Below, piece after piece: positions 1,722-45,631 of a DNA stretch of 64,000 bases. The stretch is from contig DASZKZ010000083.1 of assembly GCA_035552595.1 (NCBI GenBank), positions 2,538 to 66,537 on the forward strand. Reading direction: 5' to 3'. The notes under the pieces were generated by a model. It made no database searches. It had not been told where the DNA came from and saw only the letters and a program-made list of their open reading frames with translations. The stretch is from Candidatus Dormiibacterota bacterium (GTDB lineage: Bacteria; Chloroflexota; Dormibacteria; Aeolococcales; Aeolococcaceae). The first letter of the stretch is position 1, and every line of letters starts with the position of its first letter. A program made the translations under genes and the position numbers.

Positions 1722-1800
1722 CGGAACTCCCTACGCTGGCATGACCCAGATCAGGTTCGCGGGTGTGATCTCAGCCCCACGCGGGGCACCCCGGTGCCGT
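1722..1800 (-). promoter_or_regulatory. TPP (THI-box) riboswitch in thiD leader
   Basis: Reverse strand 1800->1722 reads ACGGCACCGGGGTGCCCCGCGTGGGGCTGAGATCACACCCGCGAACCTGATCTGGGTCATGCCAGCGTAGGGAGTTCCG, followed by the thiD ATG. The invariant blocks GGGGTGC, CTGAGA, ACCTGATCTGG-TCATGCCAGCG and TAGGGA are all present in the canonical order. Confidence 0.9.
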
Positions 1801-1838
1801 CAATCTACCACCGCCACCCCCATCGCGGTGGCGTGGGG

Positions 1839-8575: not shown

Positions 8576-8593
8576 GCCTGTCCGGCGGCGCGC

Positions 8594-9475: not shown

Positions 9476-9518
9476 GGCGGCCGACTCTGCACGGTGCGGC
9501 GGCCACGACGCCGCCCCA

Positions 9519-28929: not shown

Positions 28930-31900
28930 TCAGGAGGCCGTCGAGAGCACGGCCACGCGGTCGCATCTGTCCATCCAGGGAGCTGCCTCGAGCTCCTCGA
29001 AGACGGAGCGGGCCTGGTCGAGGAGCGGCTGGGCCTCGCGGCGGCGACCCTCTCCGGAGAGCGCCTCGGCGAGCTCGAGCCGGGTGACCGCCAGCCAGAG
29101 GGGAGAGGTGATCTCTTCGAAGATCTGCGCCGCCCGGAGGTACGCGGCCTCGGCCGCCCCGGCGTCGCCACGCAGCACCGCCAGCCGGCCGCGGAAGCGC
29201 GCGGCGTGCGCGGTCACGAACGGCGGCCGCTGCGGAGCGTGGCGCTCGTCGACCCCGTCGAGGGTGCGCTCCACCTCCTCGATGCGACCGCTGCGCACGC
29301 CCGCCTCCATGCCGTCGACGAAGGCCTTCTTCACCGCCTCGTCGGTGAGCACGATGGAGGCGTCCTCGAGCAGCCGGCGCACCGCCTCCAGCGCCGTGGT
29401 GTAGCGACCGGTGGCGGTGTCGACGGCGATGACCAGCGCGGCATGGGTGGAGAGCGTCTGCATGTCGGAGGACGTGCCCCACGCGTCGCAGTCGGCGAGG
29501 AGCTGCACCGCCGCGTCGATCTGGCCACGATGGATGTGCAGATGCGTCGCCGCCTCCGCGACGGAGAGGAACTCACCGCTGGTGAGCTCGGCGTGTGACA
29601 TCGATCCCAGGTGATCGGTGACCTCGTGCCACTGGCCGGTGCGGTAGAGGGCTCCCAGCAGCTCGGAGAGCACGTATCCCTCGTTGACGCGGTCGCCGAT
29701 CTTGCGGGCCAGGAGCAGGGCGCTGCGCAGCTCCGCGATGGCGTCGAGGTCGCGGTCGACGCGTGACAGGCTGTCGGCGACGTTGCAGTAGGAGCGCAGC
29801 GCCGCCGAGGGGACGTCGTGGTCGAGCGCGACCTGGAGCGCGTGGGTGAGCATGGCCACGCCCTCCTCGCGATTGCCGCGCGCGGCGGCGACCACGCCGA
29901 GGGTGTTGAGCGCGTTGGAGATCACCCCCGGCAGCGCGATGTGCTCGGCGATGTCGAGCGCGACGCGGGTGCGCGCGCTGGCCAGGTCCATGTTGCCGAC
30001 GAAGAAGTGGAACCGGCCCAGCTGCGCGGCCAGCGCGGCGAGGTCGGCGTCCCCGGGGTCGGCGGACAGGATGGCGAAGGCGTCCTCCATGCGGGCGATC
30101 GCGGTGTCGACGTCGCCGCGCATGCGGGTGATCTCCGCGGAGCGTGCCGAGGCACGAGCCGCGGGGTGGGCCAGCCCAGCGGCCCCGAACAGGGTGATGG
30201 CCTGCTCGAAGTGCTCCGCCGCCTCATCGATACGACCGCCGAGCAGCGCCATCTCGGCGGCGCGCTCGTGGATCTCCGCCTGGCGCTGCGCTCCCTCGAC
30301 GAGGTGGAGCGCCTCCTCGAAGTAGTGCTGCGCCTCCGGGTTGGCGGCCAGCGAGGCCGCGTGCTCCGCCGCCTGGGTCATCATCTCCGCCGCCTTGGTG
30401 CGGATCCGGGCCGCGTCGGGATCGGCGGGGGCGAGCCGGTAGGCCTCGAGGAAGTGGGAGGCGACCACCTCGACGACGTCACCGTCGGTCTTGCCCCAGG
30501 CGTCCTCGAGCCATTCTCCGGCGGCCAGATGACGGCGCTTGCGGTCCTGCCGCGAGAGGGTCTCGTAGGCCACCCAGCGGATCAGGTCCTGCCCGAAGGC
30601 ATAGAGGCCGCGCTCGGGCGAGCGCGGATCGGACTGCAGCGTGAGCACCTCGCGGCGCACCAGGTCGGTGAGCAGCGAGCGGGCGCCGGCCGGGTCGATG
30701 TCGCCCACCGCCGCCGCCGCCTCGGAGCTGAACGTCTTGCCCAGCACCGAGGCGTCCTGGAGCAGCCGCCGCTCCGGTTCGGGAAGCCCGTCGAGCCGGG
30801 CCGCGATGAGCGCGTGCAGAGTCTCCGGGACCTCGAGTGTGTCGACCGAACCGGTCACCCGGAAGCCCGCGCCCTCGGGCACGAGCAGCCCCCGGTCGAC
30901 CAGGCTGCGCACCGTCTCGACGGCATACAGAGGCACGCCGGCGGCGCGGTCGACGATGCGGCCGCGCAGCTCCTCCGGCATGCCGGGCACCAGCCCGGAG
31001 AGCAGCACGCGCATCACCTCGTCGCTGAGCGGGTCGAGGAGCAGCGAGGTGAAGCTGCGTGTGCCACCCCAGGTGGGATGTCGCTCGGACAGCTCGGGAC
31101 GCGCCAGCGTGATCACGTAGAGCGCGTGGTTGCGCGACCAGTCGAGCAGGTGCTCGATGAACTCGAGCAGCGAGGCGTCGGCCCATTGCAGGTCCTCGAT
31201 GACCAGGACCGTCGGCGACTGCTCGGCGAGGCGCTCGAAGAAGAGCCGCCAGGCGCCGAAGAGGTCGTCACGGTCGGTCGCGGCACGGTCCTCGAGACCG
31301 AGCAGATGGGCCAGACGGGGTTCGACCCAGCGCTGCTCCTCCGGGTCGGGCACGTTCTCGGCGAGGGTGGCGCGCAGCTTGGCCATGGCGGAGGCCAGCG
31401 GCTCGCCCTCGGTGATGCCGGTGCGCATGCGCACGATGTCCGCGAGCGCCGAGTAGGTGACCCCCTCGCCGTAGGCGAGGCAGCGCCCCTGATGCCAGAA
31501 CACCTCAGAGGCGAGGCCGTCGATGTACTTGCAGAACTCCCACGCCAAGCGCGACTTGCCGATGCCGGCGACGCCGACGACGGAGACGAGGTGGGCGGCG
31601 CGCTCGTCGGCGGCGGCATGGAAGAGGTCCTTGACGAGGCGGAGCTGGCGATCGCGTCCCGAGAACGGCGCCTCGAAGCCCGCGGACCTCAGCGCTCCGC
31701 GCCGGGTGCCGACGACGCGCACCGCGCGCCACACCTTGACCGCGTCGGCCTTGCCCTTGAGCGCACGGTCACCGGCATCCTCGTACTCCACCGCCGCCTC
31801 GGTGGCGCGGCGGGTGGAATCGCCGACCAGCACCGTCCCCGGCTCCGCCGCCGTCTGGATCCGCGAGGCGGTGTTGACCATGTCCCCCGCGACCATCCCC

Positions 31901-32508
31901 TGCGCCGAATCACCGAGGGTGACGGCAGCCTCTCCGGTGAGCACGCCGGCGCGGACCCGCAGCGTGTCGATGTCCACGTCCGCGCCCAGCGTCGCCACCA
32001 TCTCGACGAGGTCGAGGGCGGCGCGCACCGCCCGCTCGGCGTCGTCCTCCTGGGTCACCGGCGTGCCCCAGACCGCCATCACCGCGTCACCGATGAACTT
32101 CTCGACGGTGCCACCGTAGCGTCCGATCACCGCCCGGCAGCCGTCGAAATAGCGGGTGAGCAGCTCGCGCACGTCCTCGGCGTCGCGCTTCTCGCTGGCC
32201 TGGGTGAACCCGGCCAGGTCGGCGAAGAGGATCGACACCAGCCGGCGCTGCGCGGTGGGCGGCTGCCGGCCACCCCCATCCGGCCGGCGCACGTCCGACG
32301 ACGCGATGGCTGAGTCAGCGGGGGCGCCGCACTGGTCGCAGAACCGTGCGCCCGCGTCGAGCGGGGTCCCGCAGGTGGCGCAGGCCCGGACCAGCGCCAC
32401 CCCGCAGCGCTTGCAGAACCTGCTGCCGGCGCGATTGTCGGCGCCACACTGGGGACACCCCAAGAAAAGCCGCCTCCGCTGTGCTGGTCCACCGTCGTGC
32501 GCCGCCAT
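28930..32508 (-). CDS. Double Zn-ribbon / class III adenylate-guanylate cyclase / STAND (AAA_16) ATPase / TPR multi-domain signalling protein (1192 aa)
   Basis: aa 17-62: CPQCG..CKRCG..CATCG..CDQCG. aa ~88-265: cyclase domain (ILFADLAGFT, KFIGDAVMAVWG, NTASRIQ). aa ~312: Walker A GVAGIGKS, then Walker B VLVIEDLQWAD. The C-terminal ~550 aa are TPR/helical repeats. Confidence 0.85.
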   Translation of the reverse strand: MAAHDGGPAQRRRLFLGCPQCGADNRAGSRFCKRCGVALVRACATCGTPLDAGARFCDQCGAPADSAIASSDVRRPDGGGRQPPTAQRRLVSILFADLAGFTQASEKRDAEDVRELLTRYFDGCRAVIGRYGGTVEKFIGDAVMAVWGTPVTQEDDAERAVRAALDLVEMVATLGADVDIDTLRVRAGVLTGEAAVTLGDSAQGMVAGDMVNTASRIQTAAEPGTVLVGDSTRRATEAAVEYEDAGDRALKGKADAVKVWRAVRVVGTRRGALRSAGFEAPFSGRDRQLRLVKDLFHAAADERAAHLVSVVGVAGIGKSRLAWEFCKYIDGLASEVFWHQGRCLAYGEGVTYSALADIVRMRTGITEGEPLASAMAKLRATLAENVPDPEEQRWVEPRLAHLLGLEDRAATDRDDLFGAWRLFFERLAEQSPTVLVIEDLQWADASLLEFIEHLLDWSRNHALYVITLARPELSERHPTWGGTRSFTSLLLDPLSDEVMRVLLSGLVPGMPEELRGRIVDRAAGVPLYAVETVRSLVDRGLLVPEGAGFRVTGSVDTLEVPETLHALIAARLDGLPEPERRLLQDASVLGKTFSSEAAAAVGDIDPAGARSLLTDLVRREVLTLQSDPRSPERGLYAFGQDLIRWVAYETLSRQDRKRRHLAAGEWLEDAWGKTDGDVVEVVASHFLEAYRLAPADPDAARIRTKAAEMMTQAAEHAASLAANPEAQHYFEEALHLVEGAQRQAEIHERAAEMALLGGRIDEAAEHFEQAITLFGAAGLAHPAARASARSAEITRMRGDVDTAIARMEDAFAILSADPGDADLAALAAQLGRFHFFVGNMDLASARTRVALDIAEHIALPGVISNALNTLGVVAAARGNREEGVAMLTHALQVALDHDVPSAALRSYCNVADSLSRVDRDLDAIAELRSALLLARKIGDRVNEGYVLSELLGALYRTGQWHEVTDHLGSMSHAELTSGEFLSVAEAATHLHIHRGQIDAAVQLLADCDAWGTSSDMQTLSTHAALVIAVDTATGRYTTALEAVRRLLEDASIVLTDEAVKKAFVDGMEAGVRSGRIEEVERTLDGVDERHAPQRPPFVTAHAARFRGRLAVLRGDAGAAEAAYLRAAQIFEEITSPLWLAVTRLELAEALSGEGRRREAQPLLDQARSVFEELEAAPWMDRCDRVAVLSTAS

Positions 32509-33620: not shown

Positions 33621-34742
33621 ATGACAGCCGTTGTGACCACCACCGTCCCCGCTCGCCGCACGTCGGCCGCGCAGCGTGGCTCATCCGATCGCGGCGGAGT
33701 CGTCCGGCTTGCGGGGCTGGGCACGGCGACGCCGCCGCGCCGGGTGAGCCGCGAGGACGTGGTCGAGGTTCTGCCCCGCATCTGGCCGCAGCTGGCGCGA
33801 CGGACCTCACTGCTCGTCGACCCTCTCGACGAGGGCTTTCGCCATCTGCTGCGAGAACCGGCGGAGATGGTGGAGGCGCTGTCGCTCGGCGACCAGACCG
33901 CGCGCTACGCGCAGGCCGCTCCGGACCTCGCGCTCGCCGCCGCCGAGCGAGCCATCGCCAGCGCGGGCGGCCGGCGCGACCGCATCGGTCTGCTGGTGGT
34001 GGCGTCCTGCACCGGGTTCATCCTTCCCGGGCTCGACGCCCATCTCGTCCCCCGCCTCGGACTTCGCCCGGACGTCTGGAGGATGCCCCTCCTGCAGCTG
34101 GGCTGCGCGGGGGGCGCGGGCGGGCTGGCCCGTGCCGCCGACTGGGTGCGCACCCATCCCGGCGAGCAGGCTCTGGTCGTTGCCGTCGAGCTGCCATCCC
34201 TCACATTCCGCCCCGGCGACCACTCCCTCGACAACCTGCTCAGCGCGCTGGTGTTCGGTGACGGCGCCGGGGCCATCGTGCTGGACGGCGGCGGCGGCAC
34301 TCCGACGCCAGGGTTGCGGATCGGTCGTGTGCGCAGCGTGCTCGTGCCGGGCAGCGTCGACGCGCTCGGGTACGACCTCGCGGACGATGGCTTTCGGGTC
34401 ATCCTCTCGCGACGGCTGCCGGCGATCCTGGCGTCGGAGCTGCCCGCGCTGGTCAAGGATTTCCGCGGTGGCGGCGGTGCCGCCGGGCTGGACGCGATCG
34501 CCCTGCACCCCGGTGGGCGCGCCATCGTCGACGCCGTCAAGACGTGCTTGATGCTGAGCGAGACCCAGCTGACCGCCACCAGAGCGGTGCTGCGCACCAC
34601 CGGCAACACCTCGTCGGCAGGGATCGTCTTCGTGCTCGAGGAGCTGGCGACCTCGCCGCCGTCGCCGTCCGGCCGCGGCCTGATCATCGGATTCGGTCCC
34701 GGCCTCACCGTCGAGCTCCTGGAGCTGGAGTGGGGCTGCTGA
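33621..34742 (+). CDS. Type III polyketide synthase
   Basis: Cys-His-Asn triad contexts: VVASCTGFILPGLD, ALHPGGRAIVD, TGNTSSAGIVFVL. C-terminus GFGPGLTVE. Confidence 0.9.
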   Translation: MTAVVTTTVPARRTSAAQRGSSDRGGVVRLAGLGTATPPRRVSREDVVEVLPRIWPQLARRTSLLVDPLDEGFRHLLREPAEMVEALSLGDQTARYAQAAPDLALAAAERAIASAGGRRDRIGLLVVASCTGFILPGLDAHLVPRLGLRPDVWRMPLLQLGCAGGAGGLARAADWVRTHPGEQALVVAVELPSLTFRPGDHSLDNLLSALVFGDGAGAIVLDGGGGTPTPGLRIGRVRSVLVPGSVDALGYDLADDGFRVILSRRLPAILASELPALVKDFRGGGGAAGLDAIALHPGGRAIVDAVKTCLMLSETQLTATRAVLRTTGNTSSAGIVFVLEELATSPPSPSGRGLIIGFGPGLTVELLELEWGC

Positions 34743-35356
34743 ACCGGCGCACCCGAACCGCGCTGGTGGCTCTCCTCGCCGCCCAGCGTCTCGCCGAGCT
34801 GCGCCGCTCCGCACGCAACCGCGCCCGTAGCGGGCAGGGGGTGGCGGCGTCGCCGGGAACCTATCCGCTCATGGTGGCCACCCATGCCGCGCTCTTCGTG
34901 ACCGCGGGATGGCCGCGACGCCATCGCCGAGTCCCGGCCGCGGTGGAGGCCGTGGCGCTGGCGGGGCTGGCCGCCGCGGTGGGGCTGCGCCTGAGCGTGA
35001 TCCACGAGCTCGGGCAGAGCTGGAACGTCACCGCCCACGTGTCGCCGTCGACGGAGGTGATCACCTCGGGACCGTACCGATGGATGCGCCACCCCAACTA
35101 CACGGCGGTGGCGCTCGAGTTCGCCTGCCTGCCGGTCGCGGTGGGAGCGTTTGGCGAGGCGGCGTGGCTCTCACTGGCCGATGCGCTGGTGCTGTGGCCG
35201 CGCATCCGCGCCGAGGAGGCTCTGCTCGACCGCCTGCCCGGCTACCGCGAGGCGTTCGCCGGTGTGCCCCGGTTCGTGCCCCGGCCCGGCCGGCGCAGTC
35301 AGAATCCCGCGAGGCTGGCCCAGTCGCGCGGGGTGAGCCTGCCGAAGCCCCAGTAG
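34730..35356 (+). CDS. Isoprenylcysteine carboxyl methyltransferase (ICMT)-family membrane methyltransferase
   Basis: GTG 34730 (GGAG SD upstream) overlaps the PKS stop by 13 nt. Motif GPYRWMRHPNYTAVALEF. Hydrophobic throughout. Position after a type III PKS as in srsA-srsB. Confidence 0.75.
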   Translation: MGLLNRRTRTALVALLAAQRLAELRRSARNRARSGQGVAASPGTYPLMVATHAALFVTAGWPRRHRRVPAAVEAVALAGLAAAVGLRLSVIHELGQSWNVTAHVSPSTEVITSGPYRWMRHPNYTAVALEFACLPVAVGAFGEAAWLSLADALVLWPRIRAEEALLDRLPGYREAFAGVPRFVPRPGRRSQNPARLAQSRGVSLPKPQ

Positions 35357-36480
35357 CCGCAGTTGATTCCGAGCAGGGCTCGGAGGGCCTGGGGCCTGGC
35401 GCCGGCTCGGGCCACCGCACGCCGGCTCAGCCAGGGGCGCCGCGCCATCACCAACGCCAGCGCGGTGACGCGGCTCCGATCGCGCCAGAGCTGCGCGTGA
35501 TCGCGGCGGTAGCGTGCCTCGGCGGTGCTGCGGTCGAGCTCGCCGGAGAGCTGGGCGGCGAGGTGGAGGCCGAGGCGTTCGGCGAGGAGCAGGCCGATGC
35601 CGATGCCCTCGCCGGTGGTGGGGTCGTCGTAGCCGGCCGCGTCCCCGACCAGGAACAGGCCCGCGTGCGCGACCGAGCCCGGACGCTGCCGGAACTGACC
35701 GGCGGCCAGCGGGGGGACGGCGAGCTCCGCGGTGCGCAGCTCCGGAAGGGCGGCGCGAGCCGCGGCCTCGTAGTCACGGGCGGTCACCCCGATGCGCGAC
35801 CTCGGGCCGAGGGTGGAGACGAGGAGCAGCTCCGTGCCCACCGGAGCCTGGTACCACTCCTGCTCCTCGGCAAAGGTCACCGTGATCCGATCCAGGCCGC
35901 CGAGGTCGACCCGCCAGTGCCCGGCGAGGCCATAGCGCCCGCCGCCGCGGGCGGGCCTGGTCAGGCCCGCGGCCGCCCGCACCGTGGAGTGAAGGCCGTC
36001 GGCGGCCACCACGGCACGGCCCAGCACGGGACCGCGGTCGGTGGTCACCCCCGTGACCAGCCCCGAGCCGTCACGGACGATGCCGCTGGCGCGAACGCCC
36101 TCGAGAAGCGTCACCCGCGGGGCCTGTCGGAGCGCGTCGACCAGCACCGAGTCGAAGACCGTCCGGCGCACCCCCAGGCCCCACCGCTCACCGCCGTGGC
36201 GCGGCGGCGGGAACGGGGCGTACGCGCGCGGTGAATCGCCGCCGTGGGTGTAGAGGACGCCGCGGATCGATGGCGCCGAGGTGGCGAGAACGTCGTCGAG
36301 CAGACCGAGGCGGCGAAGCACCCCGACCCCCGGCGGCATCAGCCCCTCGCCGCACGCCTTGTCGCGAGGGAATCGAGCGCGGTCGAGAACGGTCACCGGA
36401 TGTCCGGCCCGGCTGAGCACGAGGGCCGTGGCGGCGCCACTGGGGCCCGCCCCGACCACCACGGCGCCCGCCTCGCTCAT
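35299..36480 (-). CDS. FAD-dependent oxidoreductase (geranylgeranyl-reductase/aromatic hydroxylase-like)
   Basis: ATG 36480 (MSEAGAVVVGAGPSGAATALVL...). Has the GxGxxG dinucleotide fold, DKACGEGL and GDAAGYDDPTTGEGI. Its 3' end overlaps the ICMT gene by 58 nt (convergent). Confidence 0.8.
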   Translation of the reverse strand: MSEAGAVVVGAGPSGAATALVLSRAGHPVTVLDRARFPRDKACGEGLMPPGVGVLRRLGLLDDVLATSAPSIRGVLYTHGGDSPRAYAPFPPPRHGGERWGLGVRRTVFDSVLVDALRQAPRVTLLEGVRASGIVRDGSGLVTGVTTDRGPVLGRAVVAADGLHSTVRAAAGLTRPARGGGRYGLAGHWRVDLGGLDRITVTFAEEQEWYQAPVGTELLLVSTLGPRSRIGVTARDYEAAARAALPELRTAELAVPPLAAGQFRQRPGSVAHAGLFLVGDAAGYDDPTTGEGIGIGLLLAERLGLHLAAQLSGELDRSTAEARYRRDHAQLWRDRSRVTALALVMARRPWLSRRAVARAGARPQALRALLGINCGYWGFGRLTPRDWASLAGF

Positions 36481-36582
36481 CTCCGCATCATCTCCGCATC
36501 CACGATCGGCCGGCGATGCGTGCGTCCGGCCTCCGCCCGTGGCAGAGTCGGGGAGGATTCGCCGACCGGCAGGGAGAGGATC

Positions 36583-37383
36583 ATGGCCAGGACACTCTTT
36601 CGCGAGCTCGCCGAGATCGTCCGCCTGGAGAGGGGCCGCCACCGCAGCCCGCAGGATGGCGTGTGCACCATGGAGCTGGTCGCCTGGATGGCCGGAGAGA
36701 AGCACAGCGACCACCCCCGGTCGGCATCCCCGGTGATCGCAACCTTCATCCGCTCCTTCAACGATGCCCTGGACGGCGCCGATCGCCAGCACCTGGCGGC
36801 GCTCGCCGCACGCATGATCGGCACTCGGGGCGGTGACCAGGACGAGGTGCTGCGCCGCCAGATCCTCTGGGACTGGATGGTCTCCGTGGCACTGCCCACC
36901 TGGCTGGCCGCCGCCGGCCGGCCGGACCTGGCCGCGTCCGTCGCCGCGGGCCGCGCCGGCGCTCTCGATGCCGCCGTCGCCGCCATGGATGCGTACGGCC
37001 AGGTGCTGGTGCGTCCCGTCGACGACCATCGCACCGCGGAAACCGTCACCGGGGCGCTCGGCATCGCGGGCATCACGGGAGCGTGCCTGGCGGGCAGAGA
37101 CGCTGCTGACCGCGTCGTCGGACCTCGCGCCCGCCGCCACTGGGAGGCCGCTCGAGTGCTGGCGCGCACCGCCGTGTGGTCGCTCGCCGAGATGGAGCTC
37201 GAGCCGGCCGGCAGGGATGCAACCTCCGCGGTGTGGCGGACCGCCCGCTTGCTCCGCGACAGCGCCTTCGTCGTCCTCGACCGCCTCGTCGGCGTGTCGG
37301 AGCCGCCGCCGCCGCCGCCTCCTCCTCCTCCCGTGGTCGACCGAGCGCGCACGCCGGGGCGCATCGAATCCGCCACCGTGTGA
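36583..37383 (+). CDS. Hypothetical protein with C-terminal Pro10 tract
   Basis: ATG 36583 with AGGGAGAGGA just upstream. 266 aa, Ala/Arg-rich and helical-looking. P10 is encoded at 37303..37332. No motif recognised. Confidence 0.5.
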   Translation: MARTLFRELAEIVRLERGRHRSPQDGVCTMELVAWMAGEKHSDHPRSASPVIATFIRSFNDALDGADRQHLAALAARMIGTRGGDQDEVLRRQILWDWMVSVALPTWLAAAGRPDLAASVAAGRAGALDAAVAAMDAYGQVLVRPVDDHRTAETVTGALGIAGITGACLAGRDAADRVVGPRARRHWEAARVLARTAVWSLAEMELEPAGRDATSAVWRTARLLRDSAFVVLDRLVGVSEPPPPPPPPPPVVDRARTPGRIESATV

Positions 37384-38823: not shown

Positions 38824-40182
38824 ATGGGCGACGCTCCTCCGACGACCGTTGCCGTCGTCGGGTTCGGCCGTTTCGGACGGCTGTGGGCGTCGATGCTCCG
38901 TGACGATTGGGATGTCGCCGTCTACGACTCCGCGCCCGAGATTCGCGAGCACGCGGCGGGGCAGGGATTCGCGGTGGGGTCACTGCGCTCCGCGCTGTCG
39001 TGCGACGTGATCTTCTACTGCGTGCCCATCTCAGCGTTCGAGGCAACGCTGCGAGAGCACCTGCCGTACTTCGCCGAGTCCGCGAGAGCTCCGACGCTGG
39101 TCGACGTGCTCTCCGTCAAGGTGCATCCGCGCGACGTGTTCGATCGCCTTCTGCCGGCCCCGCACCAGGCGATGCTCACCCATCCCATGTTCGGTCCCGA
39201 CAGCGTGGCGGTCGGCGGCCTGGCCGGACAGACCATCGTTCTCGACCGCTACCGGATGGCGGAGGCCGGGTTCGCGCGGTGGCACGAGTACTTCGCGAGC
39301 AAGGGCCTGGCGGTGGTGCTGATGAGCGCGGACGAGCACGACCGCCTTGCCGCGGAGAGCCAGGGCGTGACCCACTCCGTCGGCCGGACGCTGGAGCGCT
39401 TCGGCTTCACCCCGACCGCGATCGACACATTGGGGACCAAGATGCTTCACGACATCACCGCCCAGGTGGCCCACGACACCGAGCAGCTCTTCGTCGATCT
39501 CCAGACGCGCAACCCGTTCACCGGCGCCATGCGCGTGCGCCTCTCGGAGGCACAGGACTCGGTCTTCGATCAGCTCCTCCCCAACCGCGTGGTGACGGAC
39601 CGGATGGTGATCGGGATCCAGGGCGGCCGGGGCAGCTTCAACGAGGAGGCGGCGCGTCACTTCATGAGCCGGACGCCCGATGTCCCCCACGAGCTCGTCT
39701 ACCTGCACACCACGGAGAGGGTGCTGCGAGCGCTCCACGAGGGGCGGGTCGATCGCGGCCAGTTCGCCATCCACAACTCCGCCGGGGGGATGGTCCGCGA
39801 GTCCGTCGACGCCATGGCGCGCTATCGCTTCGCCATCGTCGAGGAGTTCGCCATCAAGATCTCCCACGCGCTGATGGTGTCGCCCCGCGCAGACGTTGCC
39901 GCCGTCGACACCGTCATGACGCATCCGCAGGTCCTCGCCCAGTGCCGCACCAGCCTGGGGAGCAGGTACCCGCAGCTCCGCCAGACCAGCGGGGAGGGCG
40001 ACATGATCGACCACGCCAAGGTGGCGGAGCTTCTCGGAGCCGGCTCGCTGCCGGACAGCGTCGCCACCATGGGGAGCAGGGTTCTCGCGGACCTGTACAG
40101 CCTGCGCGTCATCGAGGATGACCTCCAGGACCTCGACGAGAACTTCACCAGCTTCCTGTGGGTCGAGCGCCCGGGAGGCTGA
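38824..40182 (+). CDS. Fusion: prephenate/arogenate dehydrogenase (TyrA) + ACT-less prephenate dehydratase-like (PDT-like) domain
   Basis: aa 1-250: VAVVGFGRFGRLW (GxGxxG) and THPMFGP (TyrA catalytic His motif). aa 261-452: PDT fold (IGIQGGRGSFNEEAA, THPQVLAQC). Canonical IENS reads IHNS and TRF reads TSF. No ACT domain follows. Confidence 0.8.
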   Translation: MGDAPPTTVAVVGFGRFGRLWASMLRDDWDVAVYDSAPEIREHAAGQGFAVGSLRSALSCDVIFYCVPISAFEATLREHLPYFAESARAPTLVDVLSVKVHPRDVFDRLLPAPHQAMLTHPMFGPDSVAVGGLAGQTIVLDRYRMAEAGFARWHEYFASKGLAVVLMSADEHDRLAAESQGVTHSVGRTLERFGFTPTAIDTLGTKMLHDITAQVAHDTEQLFVDLQTRNPFTGAMRVRLSEAQDSVFDQLLPNRVVTDRMVIGIQGGRGSFNEEAARHFMSRTPDVPHELVYLHTTERVLRALHEGRVDRGQFAIHNSAGGMVRESVDAMARYRFAIVEEFAIKISHALMVSPRADVAAVDTVMTHPQVLAQCRTSLGSRYPQLRQTSGEGDMIDHAKVAELLGAGSLPDSVATMGSRVLADLYSLRVIEDDLQDLDENFTSFLWVERPGG

Positions 40183-40186: not shown

Positions 40187-42229
40187 TCAGGCGGCGGGAC
40201 CGACCGCCTCCAGGCTGCGCATGAGACCGAGAAAGTCTCCGAACGACAGGCTCTGGGCCGCATCCGACAGCGCCTTGTCCGGGTCGGGGTGGACCTCGAT
40301 GAGAAGCCCGTGCGCGCCCGCCGCCCGCGCCGCCCTGGCCATGGGGGCAACGTAGGGACGGTAGCCGGTGCCGTGACTGGGGTCGACGATGACGGGGAGG
40401 TGGGTGCGCTCCCGGAGCACAGGGATCGCCGACAGGTCCAGCGTATTTCTCGTGCTGGTCTCGAAGGTTCGGATGCCGCGCTCACAGAGCATCACCTGCT
40501 GGTTGCCGATCGCCAGGATGTATTCGGCCGCGCCCAGCCACTCCTCGATGGTGCTGGAGAGGCCGCGCTTCAGGAGGATGGGGCGGTCCACCTTGCCGAG
40601 CTCGCGGAGGAGGTCGAAGTTCTGCATGTTCCTGGCGCCGACCTGGAGAACGTCGACCAGCTCGGCCATGCGATGGACCTGGTCGACCGCCATGACCTCG
40701 CTGATGATGGGCATGCCGCAGGCCCTCCCTGCCGCGGCGAGGAGCTCGAGCCCCTCCCATCCCATGCCCTGGAAGGCGTAGGGCGAGGTGCGCGGCTTGA
40801 ACACCCCGCCGCGAAGAATCTGCGCACCCGCCTCGCGCACCGCCTTGGCGGTGGTGGTGATCTGTTCCGCGGACTCCACCGAGCAGGGGCCGGCCATGAC
40901 CACGAAACCCGCTCCTCCAACCAGGATCCCCCCCACCGGGATCACGGTGTCGGCGGCGCGCGCGGCGCGTCCGGCGAGCCGGTAGTTGCTCGACGCCTTG
41001 ACGTGCGGCCCTCCCGTCACGACGGCCTCGAGCACATCGACGCCGGCGGGCTCGGAGACCAGAGGCGTGGCGTTGCCGGGCTGGACATCGACCCTGGTCG
41101 TCTTCGCCGGGTAGCTCCCCAGCACCTTGAGGTGCAGGGATGTCGAGCGCAGGTCGTCGAGCGCGCTGGTGGTGCGGGGGTCGGCGACGTTGCCCTCGAA
41201 GTCGAGGAAGAACATGTACTCCCAGGGACGTCCGGGGCGGGGTCGTGACTCGAGCTTGGTCATGGAGTGGCCGCTGCTGCCGATCACATCGAGGGACCGC
41301 ATCAGCGCGCCCTGCTCGTGGCGGGTCACGAAGATCAGGCTGGTCTTGCACGGCGCATTGAGAGGAACGGCGACCGGGTGGCGGGCGAGGACGACGAAGC
41401 GCGTGTAGTTCTCGGGCTGGTTGGTGATGCCCCGGCGCAGCACCTGCAACCCGTGCGCCGCGGCCGCTTCCGGCGCGCCGATGGCCACCTGGGTGGGATC
41501 GCCGTCATGCGCCACCGTGCGCATCGCCTCGCCGGCATCGAAATGGAGGACAGGGCTGGCTCTCGACATCGCCTGGACGAACGCGGAGCACTGCTCCAAC
41601 CCGTCGAGATCGGAGAGCACATGCCTGATGGCGCCGAGCGGGATCTCGCCGACGCCCGCGAGGCAATGGTCGACGCTCCACGTCTCCTCGCCGACGATCG
41701 ACACGTCGTTCTCGCGGAGGAGGTCGTAGACCTCGTTGATGCTCCCGGCGATGGTGTTCTCGATGGGCAGGATGGCGAGGTCCACGTCGCCGGCTCGGAG
41801 GGCGGCGACGGCTGCCTGATGGGTGCGTGAGGCGACGAGCTCGCCGTCGCGCTCGCTGCCCGCGAGGTACTTCTGAGCGGCCAGCGCGCCGAACGTGAGC
41901 TCCGCTCCCTGAACGGCCACGCGGATGCGCTCGTGGCGCGCGTGCCCGGTCTGGCTGGCGACCTGGCGGCTCACCGACTCGCCGAGCAGATCACGGTACA
42001 TGCGGCGAACCAGGTTGACGGGCGCGCCCTCAGCGCGAGCGATCTGCTCCACCGCTTCGATGACCTGGCGCTCTCGCTCGGGATCACGGATGGCGGCATC
42101 GGAGCTCGCCTTCTCCCTGCTCACCCCGGCAACCACCCGAAAGCGCTCGGCGATCAGCTCGACGATCCTCTTGTCGAGGTCGCTGAGGCGTTCCCGCAGG
42201 GCGGGCAGCGGGGCATCGGCGTCAGACAC
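40187..42229 (-). CDS. Four-domain fusion: chorismate mutase (AroQ) + prephenate dehydratase + ACT + type I-beta DAHP synthase
   Basis: GTG 42229. aa 1-90: CM_2 ([20 protein letters not shown]...IRDPERE). aa 101-283: PDT ([28 protein letters not shown]). aa 295-372: ACT ([22 protein letters not shown]). aa ~416-680: DAHPS I-beta ([58 protein letters not shown]). Confidence 0.85.
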
Positions 42230-42293: not shown

Positions 42294-43184
42294 CTACAGG
42301 TCGATGCACCTGCGCAGGCCCTCTGTCGAGGGCACGAAGTAGTAGGCGCCGGTCAACGGCCGCGCGTAGCGGGTGAGCGCGTCGCGAGCGCCGTCGTTCA
42401 CTCCCGCCATGCTCTCCAGCATCGCCGCCAGCCGCCGCTGCTCGGCGCTGAAGCCCACGAACATGGTGCCGTGGTCGCCGGCGTTCCCGTACGGCATGTT
42501 GCGCCGGAAGACCTTGCCGAAACGGTCCTGGTCGGTGCGCGCCACATGGGACTCGGGTGCCTGGTCATCGAGCTCGGCGCTGTCGTCCTTGGCGCGCCCC
42601 ATCACCCGCTCCTGCTCGGCGCCCGGCAGTGACTCCCACGCGGTGCTGTCGTGGCTCCACGTCTGCAGCAGGAGCACGGTGCCGCCCGCACCGGGGCCCC
42701 CGTCGGGAATCAACGCGACCTGGGGCGCGTCCATCAGGCTGGGGTTCTCGGTGCCGTCGATGAAACCGGTGAGATCGCGGTCATGCCGGTAGGGCCAGCT
42801 CACCGCCTCGTCGGCAACCGACGCGGCGCTGTGCAGCGCGGCGATGGCATCGCGCGCCGCGTCGAAGATGACGTCATAGGCGCTGCCGGAGAGCCACAGC
42901 ACGGCGTCGTGCTGGGTCGCGGGCATGGCATAGCCGTCTGGCCCGAGCAGGTCGCTGTTGAACCCCTCCACGCCTGGAGGGGCGTCATCGGGCAGCAGCT
43001 CACGCCACAGCTCGGGGCGGAAGCCCGCGACCAGGTTGACGCCGCCGATGGTGGTGCGCGGCTCACGCAGGGAGGCGGCGGCGATGAGCAGGTCGCGCGC
43101 GGCACCGCGGTCGCGGAGGTCGAACTGCAGGTACGTGTGCGACGCCGTCCCCAGGGCGAAGAGGCCGCTCTGCGGAGTGGTCAT
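42294..43184 (-). CDS. Dye-decolorizing (DyP-type) peroxidase, cytoplasmic YfeX/EfeB-like class
   Basis: GFIDGTENP (GxxDG) motif, distal D/R context, 296 aa, no signal or Tat motif. Confidence 0.85.
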   Translation of the reverse strand: MTTPQSGLFALGTASHTYLQFDLRDRGAARDLLIAAASLREPRTTIGGVNLVAGFRPELWRELLPDDAPPGVEGFNSDLLGPDGYAMPATQHDAVLWLSGSAYDVIFDAARDAIAALHSAASVADEAVSWPYRHDRDLTGFIDGTENPSLMDAPQVALIPDGGPGAGGTVLLLQTWSHDSTAWESLPGAEQERVMGRAKDDSAELDDQAPESHVARTDQDRFGKVFRRNMPYGNAGDHGTMFVGFSAEQRRLAAMLESMAGVNDGARDALTRYARPLTGAYYFVPSTEGLRRCIDL

Positions 43185-43282: not shown

Positions 43283-43317
43283 GTCACCCAATGTGACTGA
43301 ACCGTCAATTGCGTGAC
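43283..43317. promoter_or_regulatory. Two adjacent short inverted repeats (GTCAC-N5-GTGAC and GTCA-N6-TGAC) in the DyP/bcsA-like divergent region
   Basis: Read directly: GTCACCCAATGTGAC at 43283..43297 and GTCAATTGCGTGAC at 43304..43317, inside a relatively AT-rich patch. Confidence 0.3.
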
Positions 43318-43459
43318 ATGCGCTGATCGCTCCAAACAATTCTGCGACCGGCTCGTCCCTCCTCCGCGGCCTCCACGCGGAGATGCTCGGGGAGTTGCCC
43401 AGGCGCGTCGCGACCACGCGTCCACAGGAGATCGCGAGCCTGGGCAGAGAGGAGAACGC

Positions 43460-45631
43460 ATGACCCCGCCCGAGTCCCGAGCGATGAGCTGGGCACGTGC
43501 CCTGGCCTGCCTCCTGGCCACGGGCGTGGGCGGCTACTACATCGTCTGGCGCCTCACCTCCACCCTCAACCCCGGGGCGCTGTGGTTCGCGATCCCCCTC
43601 TGGGCGGCCGAGGTGTACGGGTTCGTCTCCAGCATCCTGTTCTTCTACACCGCCTGGAACACCCAGCCGCGGCGGCCCTGGGTGCCGGCTCCGGCAGGGC
43701 TGACCGTCGACGTCATGGTGCCCACCTACAACGAGCCGCTGTGGGTGGTGCGGCGCACGCTCATGGGAGCGCTGGCGATGAGCTATCCGCACACCACCTA
43801 CCTGCTCGACGACGGGCGCCGCCCCGAGATGGCGGAGCTGGCGCGACAGCTCGGCGCTGCCTACATCGCCAGGCCGGACAACGCCGGCGCCAAGGCCGGA
43901 AACCTCAACTGGGCCCTGGAGCGGACCAGCGGCGAGCTGGTGGCCATCTTCGACGCCGACCACGTCGCCCTCCCCCAGTTCCTCGAGCGCACCCTCGGCT
44001 ACTTCACGGATCCCACGGTGGCCTTCGTGCAGACGCCGCAGGAGTTCTACAACGTCGAGTCCTTCCAGCACGCGACCAAGCTGAGCCAGAAGCGGCTCTG
44101 GCACCAGCAGCAGCTCTTCTACCGGGTCCTGCAGCCGGGCAAGGATCACTGGAACGCCGCGTTCTTCTGCGGCTCGTGCGGGGTGATGCGGCGGAGCGCG
44201 CTCGACGAGGTGGGTGGGTTCGCCACCGAGACGATCACCGAGGACATGCACACCTCGTTCCGCATCCACGCCAGGGGATGGTCGTCGGCGTACCACAACG
44301 AGGTGCTGGCCCTCGGTCTTGCCGCGCAGACCGCCACGCCGTACCACCTGCAGCGCCTGCGCTGGGGGCAGGGCACCATGCAGCTCATCCGCGCCGAGCG
44401 GCTGCTGACCAACCCCGGGCTCAGCATCCACCAGCGGATCAACTACTTCGCCTCGGCCCTGCACTACTTCGACGGCTATCAGCGCATCCTGCTGTACGTC
44501 GCGCCCTCGTTCGCCGTCGCCACCGGCGTGCTTCCGATCCGCGCGGTGACCCTTCCCTTCGTGCTCACGGTGGCCGCCTACTACGCCCTCTCCATGGCCG
44601 CCTTCAAGCTCACCGGGCGCGGCTACTCGATGTTCATCGCCACCGAGCGCTACCACATGGTCGGCTTCTACACGTACATCCGCAGCTCGCTGGCACTGAT
44701 CACGCGCCGCCGGCTCCGCTTCAAGGTCAGCCCCAAGGCGGAGGCCGGCCGGCCCGGGCTTGGCCTGGTGATGCCGGCCGCTTCGGTGGCCGCGTACACC
44801 GGGCTCTGTTTCATCGCCGGACTGGTGCGGATGGCTCTCGGCCACGACACCAACACCGTGGCCTTCTGGATCAACACCGCCTGGAGCGGGTGGATCGTCG
44901 GCCTCGCCCTCGCGGCGGTGGCCATGACCATGCGCAGCGTCGACTTCCGTCGTGCGCCGCGGGCGCACGCCGCGCTCCCGGTGCGCTGGAATGTCGACGG
45001 CATCAAGGGCATCGGTGTCCTCGAAGACCTCTCCGAGCGAGGCGCGTCACTGCTGCTGCCCCGCGCGGTGCGCTCCGGAGACACCGTGTCCTTCGCCGTC
45101 CTCTGGTCAGGGGTGGACTTCGCCGCCAACGGCACCGTGCGCCGGGTGCGCCGCACCGAGGCGGGCACGCACGTCGGCCTGGAATGGGACGAGCTCGGCG
45201 GCGCCGAGGCGTTGCGGTTGTCGAGGCTGGCGATCGACCTCACGGCGCGCCGTTTCCTGCTCGACTTCAACCGCCCGCCTGATCGCGTCGGGCAGCTGCA
45301 GCTGAGCCGGGGTCACCGCCGGGTCGCGCGCCGCACTCCGGTTGCCGTCCCCGTCCAGCTGGGCAGGGAGTGGGATTCCCCCTGGGCGGTGACCGAGGAC
45401 CTCAGCGCCACCGGCGCGCTGGTCCTCTCACCGATCGCCATCGCGGTGGGAACCCGCCTCGAGCTGAGCCGCTGGGACAGCCGGCCTGTCAACGTCGAGG
45501 TCGCGCGGTGTCAGGCGATCGACCTGCCGCCGGGCCGCGCCTGGCGTCTCGGCCTGCGCGTCGAGGGCGCGCTGGTGGCGGTGCCCACCACGGTGCTGGA
45601 GACGCCCGCCGCCACCGCGGTTGCCGCCTGA
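43460..45631 (+). CDS. BcsA-like processive family-2 glycosyltransferase (cellulose-synthase-type) with two C-terminal PilZ domains
   Basis: ATG 43460 with AGAGGAGAA upstream. Motifs DDG, FDADH, FFCGSCG, ITEDMHTS (TED) and QRLRWGQG (QxxRW), plus multiple TM helices. PilZ-1: RRAPR (44948) and DLSERG (45026). PilZ-2: RRVAR (45317) and DLSATG (45398). Confidence 0.85.
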   Translation: MTPPESRAMSWARALACLLATGVGGYYIVWRLTSTLNPGALWFAIPLWAAEVYGFVSSILFFYTAWNTQPRRPWVPAPAGLTVDVMVPTYNEPLWVVRRTLMGALAMSYPHTTYLLDDGRRPEMAELARQLGAAYIARPDNAGAKAGNLNWALERTSGELVAIFDADHVALPQFLERTLGYFTDPTVAFVQTPQEFYNVESFQHATKLSQKRLWHQQQLFYRVLQPGKDHWNAAFFCGSCGVMRRSALDEVGGFATETITEDMHTSFRIHARGWSSAYHNEVLALGLAAQTATPYHLQRLRWGQGTMQLIRAERLLTNPGLSIHQRINYFASALHYFDGYQRILLYVAPSFAVATGVLPIRAVTLPFVLTVAAYYALSMAAFKLTGRGYSMFIATERYHMVGFYTYIRSSLALITRRRLRFKVSPKAEAGRPGLGLVMPAASVAAYTGLCFIAGLVRMALGHDTNTVAFWINTAWSGWIVGLALAAVAMTMRSVDFRRAPRAHAALPVRWNVDGIKGIGVLEDLSERGASLLLPRAVRSGDTVSFAVLWSGVDFAANGTVRRVRRTEAGTHVGLEWDELGGAEALRLSRLAIDLTARRFLLDFNRPPDRVGQLQLSRGHRRVARRTPVAVPVQLGREWDSPWAVTEDLSATGALVLSPIAIAVGTRLELSRWDSRPVNVEVARCQAIDLPPGRAWRLGLRVEGALVAVPTTVLETPAATAVAA

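What the first reader, a model, noticed from the sequence alone, without database searches (positions are those of the whole stretch)
40187..42229. Single polypeptide joining chorismate mutase, prephenate dehydratase, ACT and DAHP synthase
Seen: the 680-aa ORF has four contiguous recognisable modules. These are AroQ CM (aa 1-90), PDT with IENT and TRF (101-283), ACT with [10 protein letters not shown] (295-372), a ~40-aa linker, then a complete type I-beta DAHPS (416-680). Known: the P-protein is CM-PDT-ACT. B. subtilis AroA is CM-DAHPS. T. maritima DAHPS carries an N-terminal ACT-like regulatory domain. I know of no characterised protein combining all four. Inference: the first committed shikimate step and the Phe branch are physically coupled. 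The PheA ACT domain sits exactly where regulatory domains sit in I-beta DAHPS, so one Phe-binding domain may feedback-inhibit both ends of the pathway.
Basis: partly seen in the sequence, partly recalled or inferred. Interest (0 to 1): 0.7.

Follow-up and report, generated by a model that had tools for sequence, protein, structure and literature searches.

The report
Phenylalanine-branch enzyme fused to shikimate entry enzyme
One 680-residue protein really does join chorismate mutase, prephenate dehydratase, a phenylalanine-sensing ACT domain and an intact DAHP synthase; the fusion is common in uncultured soil bacteria, has not been studied biochemically, and a decayed version was already noted in Shewanella in 2005.

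Summary
Window 40187..42229 (minus strand) is one 680-aa ORF with the order CM (11-89), PDT (104-284), ACT (294-375), a disordered linker (376-410) and type I-beta DAHP synthase (411-680). Every catalytic and ligand-binding motif I checked is intact.

It is not an assembly artefact. More than 120 protein clusters at 62-94% identity, and at least 80 species genomes, carry the same full-length ORF. These genomes come from Dormibacterota (the window's own group), Actinomycetota, Chloroflexota, Acidobacteriota, Ignavibacteriota, Marinimicrobia and Gammaproteobacteria. Pipelines name the protein only "CM/PDT" or "DAHPS/CM".

I found no biochemical study of the intact form. However, Song et al. [quoted passage not shown] I show that Shewanella, Ferrimonas and Agarivorans PheA proteins are decayed members of this same family.

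The shared-ACT feedback idea remains plausible and untested. The domain order matches T. maritima ACT-DAHPS, but the tether is long, variable and predicted disordered. A permuted FL-DAHPS-PDT-ACT fusion also exists, and dead DAHPS domains are retained in some lineages. These point to inter-domain assembly or regulation in general, not specifically to ACT gating.

Verdict: a real, uncharacterised variant of known modular DAHPS regulation, of moderate interest.

The parts
40187..42229 (-). Whole ORF, 680 aa plus stop: AroQ(CM)-PheA(PDT)-ACT-linker-AroA_I-beta(DAHPS)
   Evidence: ORF list and translation. Coding GC3 of 0.89. More than 120 full-length homologous clusters.
41963..42199 (-). AroQ-type chorismate mutase domain (aa 11-89)
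   Evidence: Pfam CM_2, E 2.1e-16. Ungapped alignment to E. coli EcCM 1ecm. R12, R29, K40, D49, R52, E53, S85 and Q89 match EcCM R11, R28, K39, D48, R51, E52, S84 and Q88. These residues are invariant in the 120 nearest clusters.
41378..41920 (-). Prephenate dehydratase catalytic domain (aa 104-284)
   Evidence: Pfam PDT, E 2.7e-42. PIENT at 155-159 and YTRF at 275-278. Aligns to PDT structures 2qmx, 7alz and 6vh5. T276 and R277 are invariant in 121/121 sequences.
41105..41350 (-). PheA-type ACT (Phe-binding) domain (aa 294-375)
   Evidence: NCBIfam PRK10622 spans 5-377. GALMRSL at 307 and ESRP at 327 align with GSLFRAL and ESRP of Phe-bound C. tepidum PDT. Beta-alpha-beta-beta-alpha-beta pattern in the AF2 model. 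73% identity among the 62-69%-identical relatives, second only to DAHPS.
41000..41104 (-). Flexible inter-domain tether (aa 376-410)
   Evidence: AF2 pLDDT below 35 for 380-409. Length varies from 38 to 60 aa, Pro/Ala/Lys-rich, 28% identity. Only a short D-x-L-E-A-V patch is shared by the Dormibacterota and Actinomycetota members. No similarity to the T. maritima-type FL domain.
40190..40999 (-). Type I-beta DAHP synthase barrel, including the structured N-terminal hairpin segment (aa 411-680)
   Evidence: Ungapped alignment to T. maritima DAH7PS residues 64-329 and to P. furiosus and A. pernix enzymes, E ~1e-90. AGPCSVES (C449), KPRTSPY (478), QVGARN (529), LKRG (553), CERGIRTFE (582), DPSH (H619) and [12 protein letters not shown] (E645, D656) are all present and invariant in the near family. 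L599 aligns with the tetramer-interface residue I181 of P. furiosus DAH7PS. The closest stand-alone relatives (62% identity, P0194) carry an N-terminal FL domain.
38824..40182 (+). Conserved convergent neighbour: TyrA (arogenate/prephenate dehydrogenase) fused to an ACT-less PDT-like domain. It is probably the Tyr-branch partner of the fusion in Dormibacterota.
   Evidence: Pfam PDH_N plus PDT. TYRAAT1_C on the orthologue. Best PDB match is legume prephenate dehydrogenase 5t9f. Found next to the fusion in 22-24 Dormibacterota loci at 71-86% identity, and not in other phyla.

Best explanation
SHOWN. The gene encodes one conserved polypeptide, AroQ(CM)-PheA(PDT)-ACT-tether-AroA_I-beta(DAHPS). 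The active-site residues of all three enzymes and the Phe-binding motifs of the ACT domain are intact and under purifying selection. It is the intact form of a large family whose decayed form is the long PheA of Shewanella and its relatives.

INFERRED. The protein is trifunctional. It catalyses the first committed shikimate step (PEP + E4P to DAHP) and the two Phe-branch steps (chorismate to prephenate to phenylpyruvate). By analogy with type I-beta DAH7PS enzymes, the barrels probably form a tetrameric core. The N-terminal P-protein halves would pair on either face, through the obligate CM dimer and the PDT/ACT dimer. Ligand binding to the P-protein half (Phe at the ACT dimer interface, and possibly prephenate or chorismate at CM) would compact these caps onto the barrels and restrict access to the DAHPS active sites. 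This is the gating mechanism shown for the T. maritima ACT-DAH7PS and the Geobacillus CM-DAH7PS. The same Phe-bound ACT state would also close the PDT cleft. The entry step and the Phe branch would then be throttled together.

Substrate channelling is not the reason for the fusion, because six reactions separate DAHP from chorismate. In Dormibacterota the neighbouring TyrA-PDT-like gene would supply the Tyr branch.
For: Architecture and motifs.

Purifying selection: every catalytic residue is invariant in 121 sequences. DAHPS (77%) and ACT (73%) are the most conserved modules.

Not an artefact: full-length in more than 120 clusters and at least 80 species genomes, including a closed chromosome and isolates.

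Housekeeping context rather than a gene cluster: neighbours are unrelated in Actinomycetota, and only the TyrA gene is conserved in Dormibacterota.

Domain order as in ACT-DAH7PS: Foldseek's top hit 1rzm spans ACT plus barrel. The DAHPS half begins at T. maritima residue 64, just after that enzyme's FL domain. The nearest stand-alone DAHPSs are FL-bearing.

Tetramer-interface residue conserved: L599, equivalent to Pfu I181.

Precedent for gating by N-terminal ACT or CM modules: PMC8408635.

The partner domains matter to each other beyond catalysis. Dead DAHPS domains are retained, with about 29 positions still at least 80% conserved, across 30 diverse representatives and the whole genus Shewanella. 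A dead PDT domain is retained in Virgisporangium.
Against: No activity, oligomer or ligand data exist.

The ACT-barrel tether is 38-60 aa, poorly conserved and predicted disordered. The AF2 inter-domain geometry is unreliable (pTM 0.56, rmsd 13 A to 1rzm).

No positions in CM, PDT or ACT are conserved specifically in DAHPS-intact members, so no interface signature was found.

An independent, permuted FL-DAHPS-PDT-ACT fusion keeps its own FL regulator. This shows that DAHPS-PDT fusion is favoured even when the PheA ACT is not at the N-terminus of the barrel.

Inhibiting the only entry enzyme with Phe alone would starve Tyr and Trp synthesis, unless inhibition is partial or other DAHPS isozymes exist. 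I could not check for other isozymes.
Confidence: 0.55

Rival explanations
1. Beads on a string. The fusion only fixes 1:1 stoichiometry and co-expression, and uses the DAHPS tetramer as an assembly scaffold for the P-protein. There is no allosteric cross-talk, and DAHPS is unregulated or regulated by other means.
For: The tether is long, variable and disordered. No interface signature was found. Fusion occurs in either order. The dead DAHPS domain is retained in Shewanella and relatives, as expected for a purely structural role.
Against: Every characterised decorated type I-beta DAH7PS uses its extra module allosterically (PMC8408635). The ACT domain is unusually well conserved in the fusion family. 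A mere expression coupling would not explain why dead domains are kept for so long.
Confidence: 0.25
2. The regulatory arrow runs the other way, or both ways. The DAHPS barrel activates or tunes CM/PDT, as in the M. tuberculosis CM-DAHPS complex and the reciprocal allostery of Prevotella DAH7PS-CM. The benefit of the fusion falls mainly on the P-protein.
For: In Gammaproteobacteria the barrel lost catalysis (1-6 of 12 catalytic residues remain), yet it stays attached to a fully conserved P-protein with its fold-core residues kept. Precedents are in PMC8408635 and PMC10520331.
Against: In the window's subfamily DAHPS is the most conserved module. CM is the least conserved (40%) and lies furthest from the barrel in sequence. 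In Virgisporangium it is the PDT that decays. That fits the P-protein half serving the DAHPS there.
Confidence: 0.15
3. One of the P-protein modules is catalytically minor in vivo and acts mainly as a ligand sensor, like the CM domain of Bacillus and Geobacillus AroA. Bulk CM or PDT activity would come from other genes, for example the PDT-like domain of the neighbouring TyrA fusion.
For: A second PDT-like domain is encoded 4 nt away and is conserved across the phylum. There is precedent for a catalytically active but mainly regulatory CM. Virgisporangium keeps a dead PDT.
Against: CM and PDT catalytic residues are invariant in the near family. The neighbour's PDT-like domain has altered motifs (IHNS, TSF) and no ACT, so it is the less canonical copy. 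No other CM or PDT gene lies in the 64-kb window.
Confidence: 0.1
4. Assembly or annotation artefact: two adjacent genes (pheA and aroA) joined by a sequencing frameshift or a lost stop codon in this contig.
Against: The same uninterrupted ORF of 670-730 aa appears in more than 120 independent clusters from JGI, ENA, NCBI and Logan, in a closed long-read chromosome (OY970355.1) and in cultured isolates. Composition is uniform.
Confidence: 0.01

Closest known systems
Shewanella-type long PheA (AroQ-PheA fused to an aroA_I-beta 'pseudogene'; Song et al. 2005, BMC Biol 3:13)
   Same: Same four-module order and the same family. The window's DAHPS half aligns with the C-terminal domain of Shewanella sediminis PheA (31% identity, E 4e-28). 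The CM, PDT and ACT motifs are identical in type.
   Different: In Shewanella, Paraferrimonas, Ferrimonas, Agarivorans and Marinobacter the barrel has lost 6-11 of 12 catalytic residues and evolves faster (49% against 83-89% identity). The window protein keeps all 12. It represents the functional state whose origin the 2005 paper called 'unknown'.
Thermotoga maritima DAH7PS (N-terminal ACT-like FL domain plus I-beta barrel; PDB 1rzm, 3pg9)
   Same: An ACT-fold domain N-terminal to an I-beta barrel. The barrel and its N-terminal hairpin align without gaps from Tma residue 64. It is the best structural match, spanning both domains.
   Different: The ACT here is the PheA type (GAL and ESRP motifs) and is not homologous at sequence level to the FL domain. 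It is attached by a 38-60-aa disordered tether and carries CM and PDT in front of it.
Bacillus / Listeria / Geobacillus AroA(Q): N-terminal CM-DAH7PS (PDB 3nvt, 5j6f)
   Same: AroQ CM and an I-beta DAHPS in one chain. The NCBIfam model for this family (PRK12595) scores 380 bits against a cut-off of 279, which is why NCBI names these proteins 'bifunctional DAHPS/CM'.
   Different: Here about 320 residues (PDT plus ACT plus tether) lie between CM and the barrel. A PDT activity and a Phe site are added.
E. coli P-protein PheA (CM-PDT-ACT)
   Same: Residues 1-377 match the whole P-protein model, with near-identical motif numbering (GAL at 307-309 and ESRP at 327-330, against GALV 309-312 and ESRP 329-332 as I recall them for E. 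coli).
   Different: The score of 254.6 bits is below the equivalog cut-off of 577. The C-terminus continues into a DAHPS.
Prevotella / Porphyromonas DAH7PS-CM and the M. tuberculosis CM-DAHPS complex
   Same: Physical coupling of the entry enzyme with the branch-point enzyme, with inter-enzyme allostery.
   Different: Different order (C-terminal CM) or non-covalent association, a type II DAHPS in M. tuberculosis, and no PDT or ACT.
Archaeoglobus fulgidus TyrA-AroQ-PheA-ACT four-domain fusion
   Same: Another four-domain aromatic-pathway fusion with three catalytic domains and an ACT domain.
   Different: It contains TyrA instead of DAHPS. All its reactions lie after chorismate, so it does not link the pathway entry to a branch.

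Membership tests
Type I-beta DAHP synthase (AroA_I-beta; Pfam PF00793, TIGR01361) | Sequence match above the curated cut-offs | tested here: met
   PF00793 262.7 bits against 25.5. TIGR01361 378.4 against 267.75. NF006421 424 against 335.
Type I-beta DAHP synthase (AroA_I-beta; Pfam PF00793, TIGR01361) | Metal ligands Cys/His/Glu/Asp and the PEP/E4P-binding motifs KPRT(S), LKRG and ERGIR | tested here: met
   C449, H619, E645 and D656, plus KPRTSPY 478, LKRG 553 and CERGIRTFE 582. They align with the T. maritima and P. furiosus enzymes. The assignment of the ligand residues rests on my recollection of the published T. maritima and P. furiosus structures.
Type I-beta DAHP synthase (AroA_I-beta; Pfam PF00793, TIGR01361) | DAHP synthase activity | not testable with these tools
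   Needs an enzyme assay.
P-protein (bifunctional CM/PDT with ACT; NCBIfam PRK10622) | CM active-site residues, the PDT TRF motif, and the ACT GAL / ESRP Phe-site motifs | tested here: met
   R12, R29, K40, D49, R52, E53, S85, Q89; YTRF 275; GALMRSL 307; ESRP 327.
P-protein (bifunctional CM/PDT with ACT; NCBIfam PRK10622) | Whole-protein score above the equivalog cut-off | tested here: not met
   254.6 bits against a cut-off of 577. The Pfam domain cut-offs for CM_2 and PDT are met. Pfam ACT is not hit at E<=0.01.
N-terminal CM-linked DAH7PS (Bacillus AroA(Q); NCBIfam PRK12595) | Score above the cut-off | tested here: met
   380.4 bits against 279, in two stretches.
N-terminal CM-linked DAH7PS (Bacillus AroA(Q); NCBIfam PRK12595) | CM joined directly to the barrel by a short linker, in a two-domain protein of about 360 aa | tested here: not met
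   PDT, ACT and the tether (aa 104-410) intervene, and the protein is 680 aa.
N-terminal CM-linked DAH7PS (Bacillus AroA(Q); NCBIfam PRK12595) | Prephenate or chorismate inhibition of DAHPS through the CM site | not testable with these tools
   Needs kinetics.
ACT-regulated DAH7PS (T. maritima type; NF006421 / PRK08673) | An ACT-fold domain immediately N-terminal to the barrel | tested here: inconclusive
   The order is the same, and Foldseek aligns ACT plus barrel to 1rzm (388 columns). However, there are 35 extra disordered residues, the rmsd is 13 A, and the profile matches only positions 62-329 of 338.
ACT-regulated DAH7PS (T. maritima type; NF006421 / PRK08673) | The regulatory domain is homologous to the FL domain | tested here: not met
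   An HMM built from 27 FL domains finds nothing significant in 52 fusion proteins. The same HMM finds the FL domain in the permuted fusions at E 1e-10 to 1e-16.
AroQ-PheA-(pseudo)AroA_I-beta of Shewanella and relatives | CM-PDT-ACT-DAHPS-like order in one chain | tested here: met
AroQ-PheA-(pseudo)AroA_I-beta of Shewanella and relatives | The DAHPS moiety is degenerate (a 'pseudogene' domain) | tested here: not met
   The window protein keeps 12 of 12 catalytic residues, against 1-6 of 12 in Shewanella, Ferrimonas and Agarivorans.

The most novel reading that the evidence does not exclude
The PheA ACT dimer is a single shared allosteric switch. One Phe site would simultaneously close the PDT cleft and gate the DAHPS barrels. 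That would be a 'both ends with one ligand' feedback device not yet described for any pathway enzyme. The family would also record its evolutionary life cycle: an intact trifunctional enzyme in soil phyla, then lineage-specific decay of either the DAHPS (Shewanella and relatives) or the PDT (Virgisporangium) into retained pseudo-enzyme regulatory domains.
Probability: 0.3. Interest if true: 0.65.

Novelty: new variant of a known kind. Interest (0 to 1): 0.45.

Why it matters
Type I-beta DAHP synthases are a textbook case of allostery gained by bolting on modules: an ACT-like domain, or a CM at either end. This family carries both known module types, plus a third enzyme, in one natural chain.

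It therefore allows a direct test of whether an ACT domain evolved for one enzyme (PDT) can be co-opted to regulate another (DAHPS).

It also explains a 20-year-old oddity. The 'bizarre' DAHPS pseudogene attached to Shewanella pheA is a relic of this intact enzyme.

The family supplies natural pseudo-enzyme series, with a dead DAHPS in some lineages and a dead PDT in another. These can be used to study why catalytically dead domains are kept.

On the practical side, current annotation ('CM/PDT' or 'bifunctional DAHPS/CM') hides one activity. This would mislead metabolic reconstructions of Dormibacterota, soil Actinomycetota and others. In Shewanella-type proteins the name 'DAHP synthase' asserts an activity that is almost certainly absent.

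Tried and rejected
1. Frameshift or chimera: rejected.

2. The tether as a decayed T. maritima-type FL domain: an FL-domain HMM finds nothing in the linker or ACT of 52 fusions.

3. A search for CM, PDT or ACT positions conserved only in DAHPS-intact members, as a possible ACT-barrel interface: none found.

4. AlphaFold2 monomer, to see whether ACT docks on the barrel: the domains are confident, but the linker is disordered and pTM is 0.56, so the relative orientation is uninformative. Multimer modelling is not available here.

5. Secondary-metabolite cluster hypothesis (type III PKS and FAD monooxygenase lie nearby; weak BagF/FevY hit at 303 bits against 700): these neighbours are conserved only in the closest relative L001. 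The gene sits in unrelated contexts elsewhere.

6. RNA leader, attenuator or T-box upstream: no Rfam hit near the gene and no promoter-like or terminator-like site close to it.

7. Paralogues of any module elsewhere in the window: none apart from the divergent PDT-like neighbour.

8. Whether the genome has other DAHPS, CM or PDT genes: this could not be tested.

9. Literature searches for a described trifunctional DAHPS/CM/PDT returned nothing. The exception is the 2005 remark on Shewanella. The Light & Anderson 2013 review was not held in the library.
Full report
**Observation**

The ORF at window 40187..42229 is real, but it lies on the minus strand. It has a GTG start at 42229, a stop at 40187-40189 and encodes 680 aa.

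- Pfam finds CM_2 (aa 11-89, E 2e-16), PDT (104-284, 3e-42) and DAHP_synth_1 (437-666, 4e-78).
- NCBIfam adds the full P-protein model over residues 5-377, which includes the ACT region. It also adds three type I-beta DAHPS models above their curated cut-offs over 409-676.
- Composition and codon-position GC are uniform along the gene.

**Integrity of each module**

- The CM part aligns without gaps to E. coli EcCM (1ecm). It keeps R12, R29, K40, D49, R52, E53, S85 and Q89, the counterparts of EcCM R11, R28, K39, D48, R51, E52, S84 and Q88.
- The PDT-ACT part aligns with the Phe-bound C. tepidum PDT 2qmx through the ACT domain. The TRF, GAL and ESRP motifs are in place.
- The DAHPS part aligns without a single gap to T. 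maritima DAH7PS residues 64-329, and to the P. furiosus and A. pernix enzymes (E ~1e-90). It keeps [38 protein letters not shown] and [12 protein letters not shown]. These include the Cys/His/Glu/Asp metal ligands. The ligand identities are from my knowledge of the published structures.
- No PDB chain covers more than one of the three enzyme parts.

**Not an artefact, and not rare**

The 120 best 90%-identity clusters are all 670-730 aa, cover 98-100% of the query at 62-94% identity, and carry the same Pfam set. They come from JGI, ENA, NCBI and Logan assemblies.

In one-genome-per-species contigs, the 80 best loci are nearly all full-length (two are cut at contig ends). They come from the following groups:
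- Dormibacterota, including the window's nearest relative at 94% and a closed 3.3-Mb chromosome
- Actinomycetota, including the cultured Virgisporangium aliadipatigenens
- Chloroflexota
- Permianibacter
- Acidimicrobiia
- a Neomarinimicrobiota single-cell genome

Further members are labelled Acidobacteriota and Melioribacteraceae.

In a library of 1.84 billion 50%-identity representatives, 50 of the best 150 hits have the order CM-PDT-ACT-DAHPS. Sources name these proteins only 'chorismate mutase/prephenate dehydratase' or 'bifunctional DAHP synthase/chorismate mutase'.

**Selection**

In the 120 nearest clusters every catalytic or ligand residue I tracked is invariant or nearly so. Among the 62-69%-identical members, identity by module is DAHPS 77%, ACT 73%, PDT 57%, CM 40% and linker 28%.

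The gene is therefore very probably a working trifunctional enzyme with a working Phe sensor. That is an inference from conservation, not a measurement.

**The surprise: decay of single modules in parts of the family**

I aligned 38 diverse full-length representatives (alignment A1). The CM, PDT and ACT motifs are almost invariant. The DAHPS catalytic motifs, however, are lost in 30 of the 39 aligned sequences.

Named examples of the decayed form are Agarivorans, Paraferrimonas, Ferrimonas, Marinobacter and essentially the whole genus Shewanella.
- In these the barrel keeps only 1-6 of 12 catalytic residues.
- It evolves faster than the rest of the protein (49% against 83-89% identity).
- It is still retained at full length, with about 29 fold-core positions at least 80% conserved across diverse representatives.
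- The window's DAHPS half aligns with the Shewanella sediminis PheA C-terminal domain at E 4e-28.

This is what Song et al. [quoted passage not shown] The window protein is the intact state of that fusion.

Among the relatives of the Paraferrimonas protein there is a graded series of catalytic-residue retention: 11/12, 8/12, 5-6/12, then 1-3/12.

The reverse case also exists. The cultured actinomycete Virgisporangium keeps intact CM, ACT and DAHPS, but its PDT motifs read PIEDT and YARF, so the catalytic Thr is lost.

Finally, there is an independent, permuted architecture, labelled Treponemataceae among others: FL domain, then DAHPS, then PDT, then ACT, with all motifs intact.

A rough neighbour-joining tree of the barrels gives this picture:
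- The intact fusions fall in one region, next to FL-bearing stand-alone DAHPSs.
- The permuted fusions form a separate clade.
- Degenerate members lie on long branches.
- At least one degenerate pair is nested among intact members.

**Anatomy relevant to mechanism**

AlphaFold2 was run on a 52-sequence alignment and gave a mean pLDDT of 84. All four domains are confident, and the ACT shows a beta-alpha-beta-beta-alpha-beta pattern at 294-374. Residues 380-409 have pLDDT below 35, and pTM is only 0.56.

The tether is 38-60 aa across the family, Pro/Ala/Lys-rich and poorly conserved. Exceptions are a short D-x-L-E-A-V patch in the Dormibacterota and Actinomycetota branch, and a basic S-K/R-x-Y just before the barrel.

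Foldseek's best PDB hit is T. maritima DAH7PS 1rzm, with 388 aligned columns. The ACT and the barrel thus align in the same order as that enzyme's FL domain and barrel, but with an rmsd of 13 A.

The tetramer-interface residue I181 of P. furiosus DAH7PS corresponds to the nearly invariant L599.

An HMM of FL domains sees nothing in the fusion's linker or ACT. No CM, PDT or ACT position is conserved specifically in DAHPS-intact members.

**Context**

The only conserved neighbour, and only in Dormibacterota, is a convergent 452-aa gene at 38824..40182. It encodes a plant-like TyrA dehydrogenase fused to an ACT-less PDT-like domain with invariant variant motifs: AIHNS in place of PIENT, and FTSF in place of TRF.

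The type III PKS, FAD monooxygenase, DyP peroxidase and GT2-PilZ genes nearby are not conserved beyond the closest relative. In an Actinomycetota genome the fusion sits among unrelated housekeeping genes.

No riboswitch, leader or terminator lies near the gene.

Gene orders such as pheA > aroA_I-beta > tyrA in Thermoanaerobacter (Table 7 of PMC1173090) offer a plausible precursor for a fusion by stop-codon loss. This is an inference.

**Mechanism**

Shown: one chain, three intact catalytic modules, an intact Phe-type ACT and a flexible tether.

Inferred: a DAHPS-cored tetramer with P-protein dimers on either face. Ligand-induced compaction would gate the barrels while the ACT also closes the PDT cleft. 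This follows the gating shown for ACT- and CM-decorated I-beta enzymes (PMC8408635).

Channelling is not the rationale, because the fused steps are not consecutive.

The retention of dead DAHPS or dead PDT domains argues that the halves interact functionally, and are not merely co-expressed. It does not say in which direction. The permuted fusion shows that the ACT need not be at the barrel's N-terminus. I therefore give the specific shared-ACT switch about 0.3, and the broader 'trifunctional enzyme with P-protein-mediated allosteric control of DAHPS' about 0.55.

**Novelty and verdict**

The statement that no characterised protein combines all four modules still stands after my searches.

The architecture is nevertheless abundant in public data, only generically annotated, and its decayed form has been in the literature since 2005. 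It is a new, uncharacterised variant of the known theme of modular DAHPS regulation, not a new kind of system.

It is a good experimental target for modular allostery and pseudo-enzyme evolution, and it exposes a systematic annotation gap. Interest: 0.45.

Noticed in passing
window 38824..40182 (+): A 452-aa fusion of a plant-like TyrA (PDH_N plus TYRAAT1_C; best PDB match is legume prephenate dehydrogenase 5t9f) with an ACT-less PDT-like domain. Its motifs are invariantly AIHNS (in place of PIENT) and FTSF (in place of TRF). It is convergent with the four-module gene, with 4 nt between the stop codons. It is conserved beside that gene in 22-24 Dormibacterota loci and absent in other phyla. 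The reaction of the variant PDT-like domain is unknown; it could be an arogenate dehydratase, a decarboxylase or a sensor.
   Followed up: partly
L042 (Virgisporangium aliadipatigenens NBRC 105644), match 8001-9956: This cultured actinomycete carries the four-module fusion with intact CM, ACT and DAHPS motifs. Its PDT motifs read PIEDT and YARF, so the catalytic Thr of TRF is lost. It is an apparent PDT pseudo-domain, the mirror image of the Shewanella case.
   Followed up: partly
P0402-P0516 (Shewanella, Ferrimonas, Paraferrimonas, Agarivorans, Marinobacter PheA): The PheA proteins of a whole gammaproteobacterial group are 640-675 aa, with a C-terminal DAHPS-like domain that has lost 6-11 of 12 catalytic residues. 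Some RefSeq entries name them '3-deoxy-7-phosphoheptulonate synthase', which is probably a wrong functional name.
   Followed up: partly
P0140, P0144, P0148, P0161 (one cluster labelled Treponemataceae): A permuted fusion: T. maritima-type FL domain, then DAHPS, then PDT, then ACT, 620-650 aa. The KPRTS, DPSH, TRF and ESRP motifs are intact. This is an independent DAHPS-PDT fusion carrying two ACT-type domains.
   Followed up: partly
window 1711..1803 (-): A TPP riboswitch (Rfam RF00059, 67 bits, E 5e-11), abutting the predicted start (1721) of the minus-strand ORF 903..1721.
   Followed up: no
window 33621..34742 (+) and 35299..37140 (-): A type III polyketide synthase (chalcone/stilbene synthase domains) and a FAD-dependent monooxygenase lie a few kb from the aromatic-pathway genes. 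The linkage is conserved only in the closest relative, L001, so it is probably coincidental.
   Followed up: partly
window 28930..32508 (-): A 1192-aa protein with an N-terminal double zinc ribbon, an adenylate/guanylate cyclase domain, an AAA ATPase and MalT-like TPR repeats. It is a large signal-transduction protein.
   Followed up: no
window 42294..43184 (-) and 43313..45631 (+): A DyP-type peroxidase lies 64 nt upstream of the fusion gene on the same strand and may be co-transcribed with it. It is not conserved in other genomes. On the opposite strand there is a GT2 glycosyltransferase with a PilZ domain, resembling a cellulose synthase.
   Followed up: no
L012 (DATLRB010000013.1, labelled Candidatus Saccharimonadales): This locus carries a Dormibacterota-type fusion gene (78% identity) with the Dormibacterota-specific TyrA neighbour, on a 199-kb contig. 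The taxonomic label of this MAG is probably wrong.
   Followed up: no
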